A DNA stretch of 6,457 nt from a virus (IMGVR_UViG_2529293150_000011), one strand, 5' to 3'. Shown: positions 1 to 6,457, counted from the stretch's first letter. The notes: generated by a model not told the origin, from the sequence alone. Numbers and translations: made by a program.

Positions 1-666
1 GCGACGCACACACTCCCTCTGGCGTCACCGGGCATGGCGCGCATCTGCCTTTACGGGGATTTGCAACGATTTGGCCGCCGCATCGACCTTCGTGTGAAAA
101 CGGGGGCTGAAGCCATCCGCGCACTGGCCACACAGCTCCCGGTGTTTCGTCAGAAACTGAGCGACGGCTGGTATCAGGTACGGATTGCCGGGCGGGACGT
201 CAGCACGTCCGGGTTAACGGCGCAGTTACATGAGACTCTGCCTGATGGCGCTGTGATTCATATTGTTCCCAGAGTCGCCGGGGCCAAGTCAGGTGGCGTA
301 TTCCAGATTGTTCTGGGGGCTGCCGCCATTGCCGGATCATTCTTTACCGCCGGGGCCACCCTTGCAGCATGGGGGGCAGCCATTGTGGCCGGTGGTATGA
401 CCGGCATCCTGTTTTCTCTCGGTGCCAGTATGGTGCTCGGTGGTGTGGCGCAGATGCTGGCACCGAAAGCCAGAACTCCCCGTACACAGACAACGGATAA
501 CGGCAAACAGAACACCTATTTCTCCTCACTGGATAACATGGTTGCCCAGGGCAATGTTCTGCCGGTTCTGTACGGTGAAATGCGCGTGGGGTCGCGGGTG
601 GTCTCTCAGGAGATCAGCACGGCAGACGAAGGGGATGGTGGTCAGGTTGTGGTGATTGGTCGCTGA
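1..666 (+). CDS. I: Tail tip assembly protein I (lambda gpI family), 5'-partial; the reading frame is open from base 1 and stops at TGA 664-666
   Basis: Frame-1 ORF open from the window edge; the first in-frame ATG is at 34. The translation (MARICLYGDLQRFGRRIDLRVKTGAEAIRALATQLP...GDGGQVVVIGR) matches lambda gpI as I recall it, and the residues encoded by bases 1-33 (ATHTLPLASPG) match the gpI N-terminus, so the true start lies just upstream of the window. It contains a Gly/Ala-rich hydrophobic central segment (GAAAIAGSFFTAGATLAAWGAAIVAGGMTGILFSLGASMVLGG). Confidence 0.85.
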   Translation, partial: ATHTLPLASPGMARICLYGDLQRFGRRIDLRVKTGAEAIRALATQLPVFRQKLSDGWYQVRIAGRDVSTSGLTAQLHETLPDGAVIHIVPRVAGAKSGGVFQIVLGAAAIAGSFFTAGATLAAWGAAIVAGGMTGILFSLGASMVLGGVAQMLAPKARTPRTQTTDNGKQNTYFSSLDNMVAQGNVLPVLYGEMRVGSRVVSQEISTADEGDGGQVVVIGR

Positions 667-684
667 TGCAAAATGTTTTATGTG

Positions 685-705
685 AAACCGCCTCCGGGCG
701 GTTTT
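685..705 (+). terminator. I-J intergenic stem-loop (8-bp stem AAACCGCC / GGCGGTTT, loop TCCG) followed by a T-rich tail; possible attenuator or weak intrinsic terminator
   Basis: Seen directly: aaaccgcc-tccg-ggcggtttt-gtcgttt, immediately before the J ribosome-binding site (GGAG at 715-718, ATG at 727). It lies inside a late operon, so it may be read through or only stabilise the RNA. Confidence 0.3.
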
Positions 706-726
706 GTCGTTTATGGAGCGTGAGGA

Positions 727-3700
727 ATGGGTAAAGGCAGCAGTAAGGGGCATACCCCGCGCGAAGCGAAGGACAACCTGAAGTCCACGCAGCTGCTGAG
801 TGTGATCGATGCCATCAGCGAAGGGCCGGTTGAAGGTCCGGTGGATGGATTAAAAAGCGTGCTGCTGAACAGTACGCCGGTGCTGGACAGTGAGGGGAAT
901 ACCAATATCTCCGGCGTCACGGTGGTGTTCCGGGCCGGTGAGCAGGAGCAGACACCGCCGGAGGGATTTGAATCCTCCGGCTCCGAGACGGTGCTGGGTA
1001 CGGAAGTGAAATATGACACGCCGATCACCCGGACCATCACGTCGGCAAACATTGACCGTCTGCGTTTTACCTTCGGTGTGCAGGCACTGGTGGAAACCAC
1101 CTCAAAGGGGACCGGAATCCGTCGGAAGTCCGCCTGCTGGTTCAGATACAACGTAACGGTGGCTGGGTGACGGAAAAAGACATCACCATTAAGGGCAAAA
1201 CCACCTCGCAGTATCTGGCCTCGGTGGTGGTGGATAACCTGCCGCCGCGCCCGTTATATCCGGATGCGCAGGATGACGCCGGACAGCACCACAGACCAGC
1301 TGCAGAACAAAACGCTCTGGTCGTCATACACCGAAATATCGATGTGAAACAGTGCTACCCGAACACGGCACTGGTCGGCGTGCAGGTGGATCGGAGCAGT
1401 TCGGCAGCCAGCAGGTGAGCCGTAATTATCATCTTCGCGGGCGCATTCTGCAGGTGCCGTCGAACTATAACCCGCAGACGCGACAATACAGCGGTATCTG
1501 GGACGGAACGTTAAACCGCATACAGCAACAACATGGCCTGGTGTCTGTGGGATATGCTGACCCACCGCGCTACGGCATGGGGAAACGTCTTGGTGCGGCG
1601 GATGTGGAAAATGGGCGCTGTATGTCATCGGCCAGTACTGCGACCAGTCAGTGCCGGACGGCTTTGGCGGCACGGAGCCGCGCATCACCTGTAATGCTAC
1701 CTGACCACACAGCGCAAGGCGTGGGATGTGCTCAGTGATTTCTGCTCGGCGATGCGCTGTATGCCGGTATGGAACGGGCAGACGCTGACGTTCGTGCAGG
1801 ACCGACCGTCGGATAAGGTGTGGACCTATAACCGCAGTAATGTGGTGATGCCGGATGATGGCGCGCCGTTCCGCTACAGCTTCAGCGCCCTGAAGGACCG
1901 CCATAATGCCGTTGAGGTGAACTGGATTGACCCGAACAACGGCTGGGAGACGGCGACAGAGCTTGTTGAAGATACGCAGGCCATTGCCCGTTACGGTCGT
2001 AACGTCACGAAGATGGATGCCTTTGGCTGTACCAGCCGGGGGCAGGCACACCGCGCCGGGCTGTGGCTGATTAAAACGGAACTGCTGGAAACGCAGACCG
2101 TGGACTTCAGCGTGGGTGCGAAGGGCTTCGCCATGTACCGGGGATGTCATTGAAATCTGCGATGATGACTATGCGGTATCAGCACCGGCGGGCGCGTGCT
2201 GGCGGTGAACAGCCAGACCCGGACGCTGACGCTCGACCGTGAAATCACGCTGCCATCCTCCGGTACCACGCTGATAAGCCTGGTTGACGGAAGTGGCAAT
2301 CCGGTCAGCGTGGAGGTCCAGTCCGTCACCGACGGCGTGAAGGTAAAAGTGAGCCGTGTTCCTGACGGCGTTGCAGAATACAGCGTGTGGGGGCTGAAGC
2401 TGCCGACGCTGCGCCAGCGCCTGTTCCGCTGTGTGAGTATCCGTGAGAACGATGACGGCACGTATGCCATCACTGCCGTGCAGCATGTACCGGAAAAAGA
2501 AGCCATCGTGGATAACGGGGCGCACTTTGACGGCGACCAGAGCGGCACGGTGAATGGTGTCACGCCGCCAGCGGTGCAGCACCTGACCGCCGAAGTCACC
2601 GCAGGCAGCGGGGAATATCAGGTGCTGGCGCGCTGGGACACGCCGAAGGTGGTGAAGGGCGTGAGCTTCCTGCTCCGTCTGACCGTAACAGCGGATGACG
2701 GCAGTGAGCGGCTGGTCAGCACGGCCCGGACGACGGAAACCACATACCGCTTCACGCAACTGGCGCTGGGGAACTACAGGCTGACAGTCCGGGCGGTAAA
2801 TGCGTGGGGGCAGCAGGGCGATCCGGCGTCGGTATCGTTCCGGATTGCCGCACCGGCAGCACCGTCGAGGATTGAGCTGACGCCGGGCTATTTTCAGATA
2901 ACCGCCACGCCGCATCTTGCCGTTTATGACCCGACGGTACAGTTTGAGTTCTGGTTCTCGGAAAAACGGATTGCGGATATCAGGCAGGTTGAAACCAGCG
3001 CGCGTTATCTTGGTACGGCACTGTACTGGATAGCCGCCAGTATCAATATCAAACCGGGCCATGATTATTATTTTTACGTTCGCAGTGTGAACACCGTTGG
3101 CAAATCGGCATTCGTGGAGGCTGTCGGTCAGCCGAGTGATGATGCATCAGGCTATCTGGATTTTTTCAAAGGCGAGATAGGGAAAACCCATCTGGCTCAG
3201 GAGCTGTGGACGCAGATTGATAACGGTCAGCTTGCGCCTGACCTGACTGAAATCAGGACGTCCATAACGGATGTCAGCAATGAAATAACACAGACCGTCA
3301 ATAAGAAACTGGAAGACCAGAGTGCAGCGATCCAGCAGATACAGAAGGTTCAGGTTGATACAAATAATAACCTGAACAGCATGTGGGCAGTGAAGCTGCA
3401 GCAGATGCAGGACGGACGCCTTTATATTGCGGGTATCGGCCTCAGTATGGAGGACACGGCTGACGGCATGCAGAGTCAGGTGCTGCTGGCAGCAGACAGG
3501 ATTGCGATGATTAATCCTGCGAATGGCAACACAAAGCCGATGTTTGTTGGTCAGGGCAACCAGATATTCATGAACGACGTGTTCCTGAAACGCCTGACGG
3601 CACCCACCATTACCAGCGGTGGCAGTCCTCCGGTATTTTCCCTGACATCAGACGGAAAGCTGACCGCTAAAAATGCGGATATCAGTGGCAGTGTGAATGC

Positions 3701-4211
3701 GAACTCAGGAACGCTCAACAATGTCACGATTAACCAGAACTGTACGATTAAGGGCATGCTGGAGGCGACCCAGGTCAGAGGGGATTTCGTTAAAGCTGTA
3801 TCAAAAGCCTTCCCGAAAAAAGTCGGTACGTGGGGTAACACGGAAACACCAGACGGTACGGTTACAGTCACCATCAGCGATGATCATAACTTTGACCGCC
3901 AGATTATTATTCCGCCCATTATTTTTAACGGTATAGCGTATGACGATCCGGGGAGCGGAAATAACCCAGGAGGCACGCGATACACGGGTTATGGTTTTGA
4001 AGTTCGCAAAAACGGCGTATTAATCGCGTCCAGAGAAACTAAAGGGGCCATTCCCGGTAGTTACAGTGCGGTTATTGATATGCCGAGTGGCAGGGGAAGC
4101 GTCACTCTGGAGTTTAAGATTTTCCAGAAAGGCAATCAGGGGGCAGGCAATATCACCGACTGTACGGTGATTGTGACCAAAAAAGCCGCTTCCGGCATCA
4201 GTATTCGTTGA
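727..4211 (+). pseudogene. J: Host specificity protein J (central tail fibre / tail tip), interrupted by multiple frameshifts in the first ~1.5 kb; about 1160 codons if repaired
   Basis: Five same-strand ORFs tile the interval with overlaps and frame changes: 727-1170 (frame 1), 1167-1418 (frame 3), 1352-1738 (frame 2), 1728-2153 (frame 3), 2196-4211 (frame 3). Their translations are successive pieces of one lambda-J-like protein (MGKGSSKGHTPREAKDNLKSTQLLSVIDAISEGP..., then TEKDITIKGKTTSQYLASVV, then SEQFGSQQVSRNYHLRGRILQVPSNYNPQTRQYSGIWDG, then LSDFCSAMRCMPVWNGQTLTFVQDRPSD..., then [23 protein letters not shown]...). Ribosome-binding site GGAG is 8 nt upstream of ATG 727. Total length is about that of lambda J. 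Confidence 0.8.
2196..4211 (+). CDS. J: Longest intact ORF inside the J locus (671 codons from an internal GTG); central FN3-like region plus C-terminal receptor-binding region of host specificity protein J
   Basis: Uninterrupted frame-3 ORF ending at TGA 4209-4211. The N-terminal ~300 residues are lambda-J-like; the C-terminal ~350 residues are divergent but end in a J-like motif ([10 protein letters not shown]). This is probably not an independent gene but the undamaged distal part of J. Confidence 0.55.
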
Positions 4212-4232
4212 AATATTTATAACCCCAATAAA

Positions 4233-4257
4233 GGGCGTCAGGAATGGTGCCTTTTTT
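4233..4257 (+). terminator. Putative rho-independent terminator downstream of J (tJ-like)
   Basis: Stem GGCGTCA / TGGTGCC (7 bp including two G-U pairs) with a GGAA tetraloop, followed by TTTTTT at 4252-4257; located 22 nt after the J stop codon. Confidence 0.45.
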
Positions 4258-4270
4258 ATTGCAGAAAAGC

Positions 4271-4276
4271 GAGAGG
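4271..4276 (+). promoter_or_regulatory. Ribosome-binding site for lom (GAGAGG, 5 nt before ATG 4282)
   Basis: Purine-rich Shine-Dalgarno-like hexamer at the appropriate spacing from the start codon. Confidence 0.5.
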
Positions 4277-4281
4277 TAATT

Positions 4282-4881
4282 ATGCGTAAACTTTATGCCG
4301 CCATTTTGTCCGCAGCCATTTGTCTGGCTGTATCCGGTGCGCCTGCATGGGCGTCTGAACATCAGTCCACGCTGAGCGCGGGGTATCTTCATGCCCGGAC
4401 CAACGTTCCCGGCAGTGATGATCTGAACGGGATTAACGTGAAATACCGTTATGAGTTTACGGACACACTGGGGATGGTGACGTCATTCAGCTATGCAGGA
4501 GACAAGAATCGCCAGATTACCCGTTACAGCGATACCCGCTGGCATGAAGATTCAGTGCGTAACCGCTGGTTCAGCGTGATGGCGGGGCCATCTGTACGCG
4601 TGAATGAATGGTTCAGTGCTTATGCGGTAGCGGGTGTGGCTTACAGCCGTGTGTCGACTTTCTCCGGGGATTATCTCCGCGTAACTGACAGCAAGGGGAA
4701 AACGCACGATGTGCTGACCGGAAGTGATGACGCTCGCCACAGTAACACCTCTCTGGCGTGGGGAGCTGGGGTGCAGTTTAACCCGACCGAATCCGTGGCC
4801 GTTGATGTCGCTTATGAAGGCTCCGGCAGTGGCGGCTGGCGCACTGACGGGTTCATCGTGGGTGTTGGCTATAAATTCTGA
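4282..4881 (+). CDS. lom: Lom-like outer membrane protein (Ail/Lom/OmpX/PagC family 8-stranded beta-barrel), 199 aa with a predicted signal peptide
   Basis: Clean ORF with RBS. N-terminal signal peptide [24 protein letters not shown] with an AxA cleavage motif. The C-terminus [23 protein letters not shown] is almost identical to lambda Lom as I recall it, and it ends in an aromatic residue typical of beta-barrel outer membrane proteins. Its position between J and stf matches lambda and Rac. Confidence 0.85.
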
Positions 4882-4908
4882 TTAGCCAGGTAACACAGTG
4901 TTATGACA

Positions 4909-4934
4909 GCCCGCCGGTTCAGGCGGGCTTTTTT
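4909..4934 (+). terminator. Rho-independent terminator downstream of lom
   Basis: Perfect 7-bp GC-rich stem GCCCGCC / GGCGGGC with a 6-nt loop (GGTTCA) followed by TTTTTT (4929-4934); 28 nt after the lom stop codon. Confidence 0.75.
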
Positions 4935-4945
4935 GTGGGGTGAAT

Positions 4946-6457
4946 ATGGCAGTAAAGATTTCAGGTGTACTGAAAGACGGCACAGGAAAACCGGTACAGA
5001 ACTGCACAATCCAGCTGAAAGCAAAACGTAACAGCACCACGGTGGTGGTGAACACGCTGGCCTCAGAAAATCCGGATGAAGCCGGGCGTTACAGCATGGA
5101 CGTTGAGTACGGTCAGTACAGCGTTATTCTGTTGGTGGAAGGATTCCCGCCGTCACATGCCGGGACCATCACCGTGTATGAAGATTCTCAACCCGGTACG
5201 CTGAATGATTTTCTCGGTGCCATGACGGAGGATGATGCCCGTCCGGAGGCACTGCGCCGTTTTGAACTGATGGTGGAAGAGGTGGCGCGTAACGCGTCCG
5301 TAGTGGCACAGAACACGGCAGCCGCGAAGAAGTCAGCCGGCGATGCCGGCACATCTGCCCGTGAGGCGGCAACCCATGCGACTGATGCTGCAGGCTCAGC
5401 ACGCGCAGCCAGCACGTCAGCCGGACAGGCCGCTTCGTCGGCTCAGTCAGCGTCTTCCAGCGCAGGAACGGCATCAACAAAGGCCACTGAAGCCTCAAAA
5501 AGTGCTGCCGCTGCAGAGTCCTCAAAAAGCGTGGCAGCTACCAGTGCCGCTGCGGCGAAAACGTCAGAAACGAATGCCGCAGCGTCAGAACAATCAGCCG
5601 CCACTTCAGCATCCACCGCGACCACGAAAGCGTCAGAAGCTGCCACCTCAGCCCGGGATGCGGCGGCCTCAAAAGAGGCAGCGAAATCATCAGAAACGAA
5701 CGCATCCTCGAGCGCCAGTAGCGCAGCTTCCTCGGCAACGGCGGCAGGCAAATTCCGCGAAGGCGGCAAAAACGTCCGAGACGAACGCCAGGTCTTCTGA
5801 GACGGCAGCGGGACAGAGCGCCTCAGCTGCGGCAGGCTCAAAAACAGCGGCTGCGTCGTCTGCCAGTGCCGCGTCAACAAGTGCCGGGCAGGCCTCAGCC
5901 AGTGCCACCGCCGCCGGAAAATCGGCAGAAAGCGCCGCATCATCCGCTTCAACAGCCACAACGAAGGCTGGCGAAGCCACTGAACAGGCCAGCGCAGCAG
6001 CGAGGTCAGCTTCCGCAGCGAAGACATCCGAAACGAACGCGAAAGCGTCGGAAACCCGTGCAGAATCCTCAAAAACGGCAGCGGCATCGTCCGCCAGTTC
6101 GGCGGCGTCATCGGCATCATCGGCGTCTGCTTCAAAAGATGAGGCGACCAGACAGGCGTCAGCAGCGAAGGGCAGCGCCACGACGGCATCCACGAAGGCG
6201 ACAGAGGCTGCTGGTAGTGCGAAGGCAGCAGCTCAGAGCAAAAGTACGGCGGAATCTGCAGCAACGCGCGCTGAGACAGCGGCAAAACGGGCAGAGGATA
6301 TTGCATCCGCCGTGGCACTTGAGGATGCGAGCACGACGAAAAAGGGGATAGTACAGCTCAGTAGTGCGACTAACAGCACTTCCGAGTCACTGGCGGCAAC
6401 ACCAAAAGCCGTTAAGGCCGCGTATGACCTGGCTAACGGGAAATACACCGCACAGGA
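4946..6457 (+). pseudogene. stf: Side tail fibre protein Stf (StfR-like), N-terminal ~500 codons; frameshifted near 5750 and running off the 3' end of the window
   Basis: ATG at 4946 (the ORF track begins at an upstream in-frame GTG at 4940) gives MAVKISGVLKDGTGKPVQNCTIQLKAKRNSTTVVVNTLASENPDEAGRYSMDVEYGQYSVILLVEGFPPSHAGTITVYEDSQPGTLNDFLGAMTEDDARPEALRRFELMVEEVARNAS..., the conserved Stf N-terminus. Frame 2 stops at TGA 5798-5800, but frame 3 from ~5752 reads on without a stop to the window end (NSAKAAKTSETNARSSETAAGQSASAAAGSK...AEDIASAVALEDASTTKKGIVQLSSATNSTSESLAATPKAVKAAYDLANGKYTAQ), continuing the Stf shaft. This is consistent with a 1-bp insertion in an A-run at ~5749-5751. Confidence 0.75.
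5320..6250 (+). repeat. Ala/Ser/Thr-rich low-complexity region of the Stf shaft with degenerate, irregularly spaced repeats (recurring K-T/S-SETNA motif)
   Basis: The motif AAKTSETNA / AKSSETNA recurs at about 5558, 5684, 5767 and 6020 at the DNA level (aaaacgtcagaaacgaa-like), embedded in GCN/TCN-rich sequence. Both strands lack stop codons over long stretches, which generates long shadow ORFs. Confidence 0.5.

What the first reader, a model, noticed from the sequence alone, without database searches (positions are those of the whole stretch)
3100..4211. Divergent, more AT-rich C-terminal region of J suggests a swapped receptor-binding module
Up to roughly residue 300 of the 2196-4211 ORF the protein tracks the lambda J family (FN3-like central region). 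The remainder is not the lambda sequence I recall, although it keeps a J-like terminal motif ([10 protein letters not shown]). The DNA here is visibly more AT-rich than the upstream part of J (for example atgattattatttttacg, cagattattattccgcccattatttttaac). The J C-terminus is the receptor-binding determinant (LamB for lambda), so this looks like a mosaic junction that gives the tail tip a different receptor specificity. The module is intact even though the N-terminal part of the gene is disrupted.
Basis: partly seen in the sequence, partly recalled or inferred. Interest (0 to 1): 0.45.

Follow-up and report, generated by a model that had tools for sequence, protein, structure and literature searches.

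The report
Phage 434-type receptor module in J
The end of this prophage tail-tip gene J carries the long-known phage 434 host-range module, which binds the porin OmpC instead of lambda's LamB; it is found in about 39% of complete E. coli genomes, so the finding is correct but ordinary.

Summary
J is 95-100% identical to lambda J in DNA up to about nt 3125, which is residue 310 of the 2196-4211 ORF, and then diverges. The divergent part is two modules, not one.

1. An alpha-helical shaft (nt 3141-3383) unrelated to lambda's and 28 aa longer.
2. A receptor-binding domain (nt 3741-4208) that is 41% identical to lambda's, 97% to phage 434 / lambda h434 J, and 99% to phage PhiR68_2.

A fairly conserved beta-prism (79% to lambda) lies between them and acts as the crossover zone.

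Published work states that the 434 J gene redirects lambda from LamB to OmpC, so OmpC is the expected receptor.

- **Assortment:** among phages, shaft type and RBD type combine independently.
- **Frequency:** the 434-type RBD is in 2111 of 5426 complete E. coli genomes.
- **AT-richness:** it is real (GC 0.60 to 0.50), but it starts about 225 nt upstream of the breakpoint, inside lambda-identical sequence. Lambda J shows the same drop, so it is not evidence of a swap.
- **Function here:** this J copy has 11 frameshifting deletions and stf has one frameshift, so the module is an unexpressed relic.

Already known; low interest.

The parts
34..666 (+). Tail tip assembly gene I
   Evidence: ORF. 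Annotated as I in PhiR68_2, lambda and 434. Pfam Lambda_tail_I on the called gene.
727..4211 (+). Tail-tip / central fibre gene J, frameshifted pseudogene. It has 11 deletions of 1-2 nt at 1106, 1255, 1337, 1390, 1512, 1564, 1608, 1696, 2119, 2139 and 2174.
   Evidence: Alignments to lambda, 434 and PhiR68_2. Fragmented ORFs. The first deletion is shared with unrelated assemblies and the first 7 with a sibling-isolate contig.
2196..4211 (+). Last uninterrupted ORF of J (671 aa). It corresponds to lambda J residues 495-1132 and is annotated ENF63283.1 in E. coli P0304816.7.
2541..3167 (+). FNIII-1 and FNIII-2 domains (Pfam Ig_J on ORF aa 116-220, Ig_J_second on aa 222-324), lambda-like at 95-100% nt. 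The GC step-down at about nt 2900 lies inside FNIII-2.
   Evidence: Pfam E = 2e-41 and 3e-40. Identity and GC per 100 nt. GC comparison with lambda.
3141..3383 (+). Alpha-helical shaft (AHS), long variant. It is 43% identical to lambda over the alignable residues and has 84 extra nt (28 aa), inserted at about 3218 (63 nt) and 3316 (21 nt).
   Evidence: It is 100% identical to PhiR68_2 and 95-99% to phages 204576, VT1-Sakai and Lambda_ev203, which carry other RBDs. Predicted helical in a low-confidence AF2 model. Domain name from PMC11101478.
3384..3740 (+). Central straight fibre (beta-prism, CSF). It is 79% aa identical to lambda and 84% to 434. Its 3' part (about 3560-3740) is conserved in all types and acts as the crossover zone upstream of the RBD. 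It contains the NQIFMND stretch, which aligns with the lambda segment that includes F924.
   Evidence: Pfam Phage_Tail_Tip on aa 378-506, E = 1e-30. Sliding identity. Domain identities. Engineered junction at lambda residue 964 (PMC11338833).
3741..4211 (+). Receptor-binding domain, phage 434 (h434) type, plus stop codon. Expected receptor is OmpC.
   Evidence: 152/156 aa identical to 434 J and 155/156 to PhiR68_2, against 41% to lambda. 97.3% nt identity to 434 and no nt match to lambda. Pfam Ig_GpJ_C E = 2e-25. PDB 9wca E = 6e-29, 8xcj E = 9e-22.
4282..4881 (+). lom (Ail/Lom outer-membrane protein), 434-like allele
   Evidence: 94% nt identity to 434 lom; only 135 nt at 81% match lambda. Pfam Ail_Lom.
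4908..4929 (+). Terminator-like hairpin plus T-run after lom
   Evidence: Consensus match only, and the number found is at chance level. A terminator is annotated between lom and stf in phage 434.
4940..6457 (+). Side tail fibre gene stf, 5' part. It is frameshifted by a 1-nt insertion at 5749, giving a stop at 5800, and runs off the contig end.
   Evidence: Alignment and translation against PhiR68_2 stf.

Best explanation
Nt 3100-4211 encode the distal half of the lambdoid central tail fibre J. [quoted passage not shown] The RBD is the phage 434 (h434) allele.

In a functional J trimer the three RBDs at the fibre tip would bind the trimeric porin OmpC instead of LamB. By analogy with lambda-LamB and with the A8 gpJ-OmpC structures, binding would twist the prism, flip the shaft and open the tail tip for DNA ejection.

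The gene is a patchwork made by homologous recombination in conserved stretches between modules. The hub and FNIII part is lambda-like. The shaft is a 28-aa-longer variant shared with many Stx and ECOR prophages. The prism C-half and the RBD are 434-like.

In this copy J is broken by 11 upstream frameshifts and stf by one. The module is therefore not expressed as a tail fibre and can only serve as a recombination donor for other lambdoid phages.

Shown here: homology, module boundaries, distribution and the frameshifts. Inferred: OmpC binding and the triggering mechanism.
For: Identity to 434:
- The RBD is 152/156 aa identical to phage 434 J, and ORF residues 453-632 are identical without exception.
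- Nt identity to 434 and lambda h434 imm21 is 97% over 3768-4211, and 98-100% per 60 nt from 3620 to 4039.

Discrete RBD types:
- RBD identity across phage records is bimodal. 74 records are at 90% or more, 169 are below 60%, and none lie between.

Receptor:
- Replacing lambda J with 434 J redirects lambda to OmpC, the receptor of 434 (PMC3509688; PMC11101478).

Domain architecture and fold:
- Pfam finds Ig_J, Ig_J_second, Phage_Tail_Tip and Ig_GpJ_C, all far above cut-off.
- The closest solved structures are the gpJ central fibres 9wca/9wcb (A8 gpJ, closed state and open state with OmpC) and 8xck/8xcj (lambda with LamB).

Independent assortment of shaft and RBD:
- Long shaft with 434 RBD: window, PhiR68_2.
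- Short shaft with 434 RBD: 434, Escherichia sp. E1V33.
- Long shaft with other RBDs: Lambda_ev203, 204576, VT1-Sakai.
- Short shaft with lambda RBD: lambda.

Frameshifts.
Against: - Receptor use was not tested. No tool here tests binding.
- The window RBD differs from 434 at four residues in the last 39 aa (R633G, I642V, Q644H, G649R). Related OmpC-binding gpJ chimeras A8 and 1A2 differ in which OmpC alleles they accept (PMC11338833). The allele range could therefore differ from that of 434.
- I found no published receptor data for the phages with the nearest J (PhiR68_2, mEp332, ev243, Kati).
- The AF2 monomer model is poor (mean pLDDT 50). It adds only secondary structure.
Confidence: 0.85

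Rival explanations
1. The RBD is 434-like in sequence but recognises another receptor or a shifted set of OmpC alleles, because of its four substitutions near the C-terminus or its combination with the long shaft.
For: There are four differences from 434 in the last 39 residues. A8 and 1A2 gpJ chimeras both use OmpC but differ in allele range. Phi21 J gains OmpC use through a single mutation, and lambda J gains OmpF use through four or more.
Against: Identity to 434 is 97%, with 180 consecutive identical residues covering most of the RBD. The same RBD within one residue is in phages that plate on K-12 and ECOR13. Nothing points to a non-porin receptor.
Confidence: 0.1
2. The apparent mosaic is an assembly chimera. 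The window is a whole 6.4-kb contig of a draft genome with several lambdoid prophages, so reads from different J copies may have been merged.
For: The window equals contig AQBE01000025.1, 6457 bp. A sibling assembly carries a related J that shares the 5' part and 7 of the deletions but has a different 3' end. The prism shows patchy identity to PhiR68_2 and to 434.
Against: The same long-shaft plus 434-RBD combination occurs at 97.7% over nt 3100-4211 in complete phage genomes (PhiR68_2, Kati, PhiR34_1, phiSTEC1575-Stx2k and others). The whole window matches closed E. coli chromosomes end to end at 97.5%.
Confidence: 0.03
3. There was no module exchange. The C-terminus is a lambda-type J that diverged by ordinary point mutation under diversifying selection.
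For: The fold and the terminal motif are shared with lambda. The RBD is the fastest-evolving part of J.
Against: Nt identity falls from 95-100% to undetectable within one gene, with sharp edges. RBD identities are bimodal with no intermediates. All four shaft and RBD combinations exist. The flanking lom is also 434-like rather than lambda-like.
Confidence: 0.02

Closest known systems
Phage 434 J / lambda h434 host-range allele (OL657226, OM418627)
   Same: The RBD is 97% aa and 97% nt identical, and ORF residues 453-632 are identical. The downstream lom is of the same type. The expected receptor is the same, OmpC (PMC3509688).
   Different: 434 has the short, lambda-type alpha-helical shaft and a lambda-type N-half of the prism. 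The window has the 28-aa-longer shaft and 19 substitutions in prism residues 401-452. There are four substitutions near the C-terminus. The window copy is frameshifted.
J of Escherichia phage PhiR68_2 (PV340576) and relatives (Kati, PhiR34_1, mEp332, ev243, phiSTEC1575-Stx2k)
   Same: The module combination is the same (long shaft plus 434-type RBD). Nt 3100-4211 are 97.7% identical, the shaft is 100% identical, and the RBD is 155/156.
   Different: Their J and stf are intact. The window's prism has a small lambda/434-like patch (LSMED, aa 416-420) and a 434-like C-half.
Lambda J (gpJ; PDB 8IYK, 8XCK, 8XCJ with LamB)
   Same: The architecture is the same: hub, FNIII-1, FNIII-2, alpha-helical shaft, central straight fibre, Ig-like RBD. 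Nt identity is 96% up to about nt 3125. The prism is 79% identical. The C-terminal KK..GIS motif is shared.
   Different: The shaft is 28 aa shorter in lambda and 43% identical. The RBD is only 41% identical with three indels and no nt similarity. Lambda's receptor is LamB (PMC11101478).
A8 gpJ chimera (PDB 9WCA closed state, 9WCB open state with OmpC of EDL933; Brodel et al. 2024)
   Same: It is an OmpC-binding J RBD of the same fold, joined to lambda J at the same conserved stretch (lambda residue 964). It is the best PDB match (E = 3e-110 for the 370-aa fragment, 6e-29 for the RBD alone) (PMC11338833).
   Different: It is a different RBD type. By eye A8 resembles the Lambda_ev203 RBD, and that RBD is 42% identical to the window's. 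It cannot be used to read off contact residues.

Membership tests
Lambda gpJ-type central tail fibre (TipJ / host specificity protein J) | C-terminal domain series FNIII-1, FNIII-2, tail-tip fibre (prism), C-terminal Ig-like RBD | tested here: met
   Pfam Ig_J 2e-41, Ig_J_second 3e-40, Phage_Tail_Tip 1e-30 and Ig_GpJ_C 2e-25, all above curated cut-offs and in the expected order.
Lambda gpJ-type central tail fibre (TipJ / host specificity protein J) | Gene context I - J - lom - stf in a lambdoid tail operon | tested here: met
   ORFs and annotated homologues.
Lambda gpJ-type central tail fibre (TipJ / host specificity protein J) | One continuous reading frame of about 1130-1165 codons that includes the N-terminal hub domains | tested here: not met
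   11 frameshifting deletions between 1106 and 2174 split J into at least 5 ORFs. It is a pseudogene of this family.
Phage 434 (h434) host-range type RBD | Near-identity of the last ~150 residues to 434 / lambda h434 J, distinct from other RBD types | tested here: met
   152/156 aa and 97.3% nt identity. It falls in the 90%-or-more mode of a bimodal distribution.
Phage 434 (h434) host-range type RBD | Adsorption to OmpC and independence from LamB | not testable with these tools
   Taken from the literature for 434 and lambda h434 (PMC3509688, PMC11101478).
Lambda (LamB-binding) type RBD | High identity to lambda J residues ~982-1132, including the receptor-contact loops | tested here: not met
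   41% aa identity with three indels and no nt similarity.

The most novel reading that the evidence does not exclude
The least ordinary reading left open concerns the shaft, not the RBD. The 28-aa (four-heptad) longer alpha-helical shaft is a separately exchangeable module. It could tune fibre reach, for example through O-antigen or capsule. It could also tune the mechanical trigger, since in lambda the shaft flips and partly refolds into beta-strands after receptor binding. I found no description of this length polymorphism in the papers read. In addition, the four C-terminal substitutions could shift OmpC-allele range relative to 434.
Probability: 0.2. Interest if true: 0.3.

Novelty: already known. 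Interest (0 to 1): 0.1.

Why it matters
It matters little as a discovery. Exchange of the J C-terminus between lambda and 434 (h434) is a founding example of phage host-range genetics. The OmpC-binding J modules are already used to retarget lambda particles and have solved structures.

The practical value is annotation. This prophage remnant in E. coli P0304816.7 carries an OmpC-type (434-type) J tip, a 434-type lom, and a long-shaft variant. It illustrates that shaft and RBD recombine independently at conserved junctions.

It also shows that a GC drop inside J is a shared feature of the gene family, not a marker of foreign origin.

Tried and rejected
- **Source of the frameshifted copy:** an exact 30-mer across the first J frameshift found nothing in GTDB representative genomes. 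The source was found later by exact protein look-up.
- **Species range:** a search of representative genomes with the RBD found only Escherichia, plus one contig that is probably mis-binned. There is no sign of a wider host range.
- **A8/1A2 sequences:** a supplement search of Brodel et al. for the window's RBD peptides and the gpJ names found nothing. It is unresolved whether 1A2 is the 434 type.
- **Receptor data for the nearest phages:** literature searches for PhiR68_2, mEp332, ev243 and Chlobot found no receptor data.
- **Structure prediction:** AF2 of the 370-aa fragment with a 12-sequence alignment gave mean pLDDT 50.4. This is expected for a monomer of an intertwined trimer. I used it only for secondary structure. 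Foldseek still ranked the gpJ fibres first, but its TM-scores are not meaningful.
- **Other features:** Rfam found no RNA family. Promoter and terminator scans of 3000-5000 were at chance level. I treated the overlapping alternative-frame ORFs (3551-3874 minus strand, 3697-3936 plus strand) as spurious, because they lie inside a coding frame conserved at 97-100% with intact phage J genes.
- **Frameshifts as pure read errors:** rejected for most. 7 of 11 recur in a sibling assembly, and the first recurs in unrelated assemblies.

Full report
**What the window is.**
The 6457-nt window holds the distal tail genes of a lambdoid prophage. These are I (34-666), J (727-4211), lom (4282-4881) and the start of stf (4940 onward).

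It is the complete contig AQBE01000025.1 of the draft assembly GCA_000357865.2. The 671-aa product is ENF63283.1 of E. coli P0304816.7.

The whole window matches complete lambdoid phages end to end, with PhiR68_2 at 97.3%. It also matches closed E. coli chromosomes at up to 97.5%.

**Checking the observation.**
Against lambda, nt 1-3210 align at 96.3%. Nt 3380-3767 align at 79.9%. Nt 3768-4211 do not align at all. Per 100 nt, identity is 95-100% up to nt 3100, 81% for 3101-3200, 17-45% for 3201-3400, 70-93% for 3401-3700, and about 50% afterwards, which is alignment noise.

In protein, the 2196-4211 ORF matches lambda J 495-1131. It is near-identical to residue ~310, then has a 28-aa insertion and a divergent tail. 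So is the conserved terminal motif: [10 protein letters not shown] against lambda KKQALGISVV, with KK..GIS kept in all types.

**Composition.**
GC is 0.600 over 727-2900, 0.511 over 2901-3125 and 0.499 over 3126-4211. The step at about nt 2900 lies in FNIII-2, where the window is still 95-100% identical to lambda. Lambda J shows the same step (0.591, 0.511, 0.541), and so does 434 J (0.593, 0.520, 0.501).

The swapped part is only about 4 points lower in GC than lambda's own C-terminus. The first quoted AT-rich string sits at 3061, in lambda-like sequence. Only the second, at 3900, is in the RBD. The AT-richness is therefore real, but it is a family feature and not a marker of the junction.

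**Anatomy.**
Pfam places these domains on the ORF:
- Ig_J on residues 116-220.
- Ig_J_second on residues 222-324.
- Phage_Tail_Tip on residues 378-506.
- Ig_GpJ_C on residues 535-670.

In the nomenclature of the lambda tail structure these are FNIII-1, FNIII-2, alpha-helical shaft (AHS), central straight fibre (CSF, a beta-prism) and RBD (PMC11101478).

| Domain (ORF residues) | lambda | 434 | PhiR68_2 |
|---|---|---|---|
| AHS (316-396) | 43%, 28-aa gap | 45%, 28-aa gap | 100% |
| CSF (397-515) | 79% | 84% | 92% |
| RBD (516-671) | 41% | 97% (152/156) | 99% (155/156) |

ORF residues 453-632 are identical to phage 434 J. The four differences from 434 (R633G, I642V, Q644H, G649R) are all near the C-terminus.

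At nt level the window is 98-100% identical to 434 from 3620 to 4039. The downstream lom is also 434-like: 94% to 434, against only a 135-nt match to lambda.

**It is a set of modules, not one swap.**
The long AHS is found at 91-100% nt in phages whose RBD is of another type (Lambda_ev203, 204576, VT1-Sakai). The 434-type RBD occurs with the short, lambda-type AHS in 434 itself and in Escherichia sp. E1V33. All four combinations exist, so shaft and RBD are exchanged independently.

The junctions lie in conserved stretches:
- ...GYLDFFKG before the shaft.
- N-MWAVK after the shaft.
- The block [21 protein letters not shown]...[25 protein letters not shown] before the RBD.

RBD identity across phage records is strictly bimodal. 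74 records are at 90% or more, 169 are below 60%, and none lie between. That pattern is what discrete alleles give and what gradual divergence does not.

**What it does.**
Phage 434 uses OmpC. Replacing lambda J by the 434 gene redirects lambda to OmpC (PMC3509688; PMC11101478). The sequenced lambda h434 imm21 hybrid carries this RBD (OM418627).

The closest solved structures are gpJ central fibres:
- A8 gpJ, closed state and open state with OmpC (9WCA, 9WCB).
- Lambda gpJ, closed state and with LamB (8XCK, 8XCJ).

By homology, a functional trimer with this tip would bind the OmpC trimer through the bottom loops of the Ig-like RBD. It would then pass the signal up the prism to the shaft, which flips and lets the FNIII strings and hub open (mechanism from PMC11101478; inferred here).

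My AF2 model of the 370-aa fragment is poor (pLDDT 50.4). It predicts a continuous helix across the 28-aa insertion and a beta-rich RBD.

**State of this copy.**
J carries 11 deletions of 1-2 nt between 1106 and 2174. Stf carries a 1-nt insertion at 5749 that gives a stop at 5800.

The first deletion recurs in unrelated assemblies. The first seven recur in a 217-kb contig of the sibling-series assembly GCA_000358995.1. The last four, and the stf insertion, are seen only in the window.

Most are therefore probably real, and the locus is a decaying prophage. The RBD is 'intact' only in the sense that the last 671 codons are open. It is not made as part of a fibre and can act only as a recombination donor.

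**How common it is.**
The 434-type RBD DNA is present in 2111 of 5426 complete E. coli genomes, with up to 7 copies per genome. The 90%-identity protein cluster of the 671-aa product has 9528 members. Among species-representative genomes it was found only in Escherichia, apart from one short contig in a Collinsella MAG that is probably mis-binned.

**Verdict.**
The module is the classical h434 / OmpC allele, it is very common, and it is non-functional in this copy. The AT-richness argument does not hold.

The only mildly open points are the functional meaning of the long-shaft variant and of the four C-terminal substitutions.

Novelty: already known. Interest: 0.1.

Noticed in passing
window 1106-2174: J has eleven 1-2-nt deletions and no insertions, clustered in about 1.07 kb, while substitution density there is low (97-100% identity to lambda). 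The first is shared with unrelated assemblies, the first 7 with a sibling-series contig (L013), and the last 4 are unique to the window. This looks like stepwise decay, possibly spread between prophage copies by gene conversion. Assembly error is not excluded for the last 4.
   Followed up: partly
window 5749: A 1-nt insertion (GGCAGGCAAATT against GGCAGG-AAATT in PhiR68_2) frameshifts stf and gives a stop at 5800. The side tail fibre is therefore also inactivated, a parallel to the well-known stf frameshift of laboratory lambda but at a different site.
   Followed up: partly
window 3141-3383: The alpha-helical shaft is 28 aa (four heptads) longer than in lambda and 434. This long variant is widespread (Stx phages, VT1-Sakai, cdtI, ECOR prophages) and assorts independently of RBD type. 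I found no description of this length polymorphism in the papers read.
   Followed up: partly
window 3441-3455 (ORF aa 416-420) and 3384-3560: There is fine-scale mosaicism inside the prism. The N-half is of the type linked with the long shaft, but a short patch (LSMED) is lambda/434-like where PhiR68_2 has AGIEN. From aa 453 onward the sequence is identical to 434.
   Followed up: partly
window about 3556-3576 (NQIFMND): The phenylalanine equivalent to lambda J F924 is conserved. That residue is needed to trigger the prophage abortive-infection nuclease HepS (PMC13043305). An expressed copy of this J would be expected to activate HepS.
   Followed up: no
window 4282-4881: lom is the 434-type allele: 94% nt identity to 434, against only 135 nt at 81% to lambda. 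The 434-like tract therefore extends past J into lom and up to about nt 5367.
   Followed up: partly
L006 (JAGZNZ010000056.1, 1350 bp): A contig binned into a Collinsella sp. MAG encodes this E. coli phage J RBD at 97% identity. This is almost certainly a binning error.
   Followed up: no
P0001 (Shigella sonnei, 608 aa): This hit scores higher (858 bits) than near-identical hits (795 bits) while its best local identity is only 69%. That suggests an internal duplication or fusion of J C-terminal segments.
   Followed up: no
L013 7001-10688 (AQAX01000107.1): A sibling-series E. coli assembly has a second J-like pseudogene. It shares the window's first 7 deletions and 97.6% identity up to window nt 2968, then continues with a different C-terminal region and a different lom. 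This may reflect gene conversion between resident prophages.
   Followed up: partly
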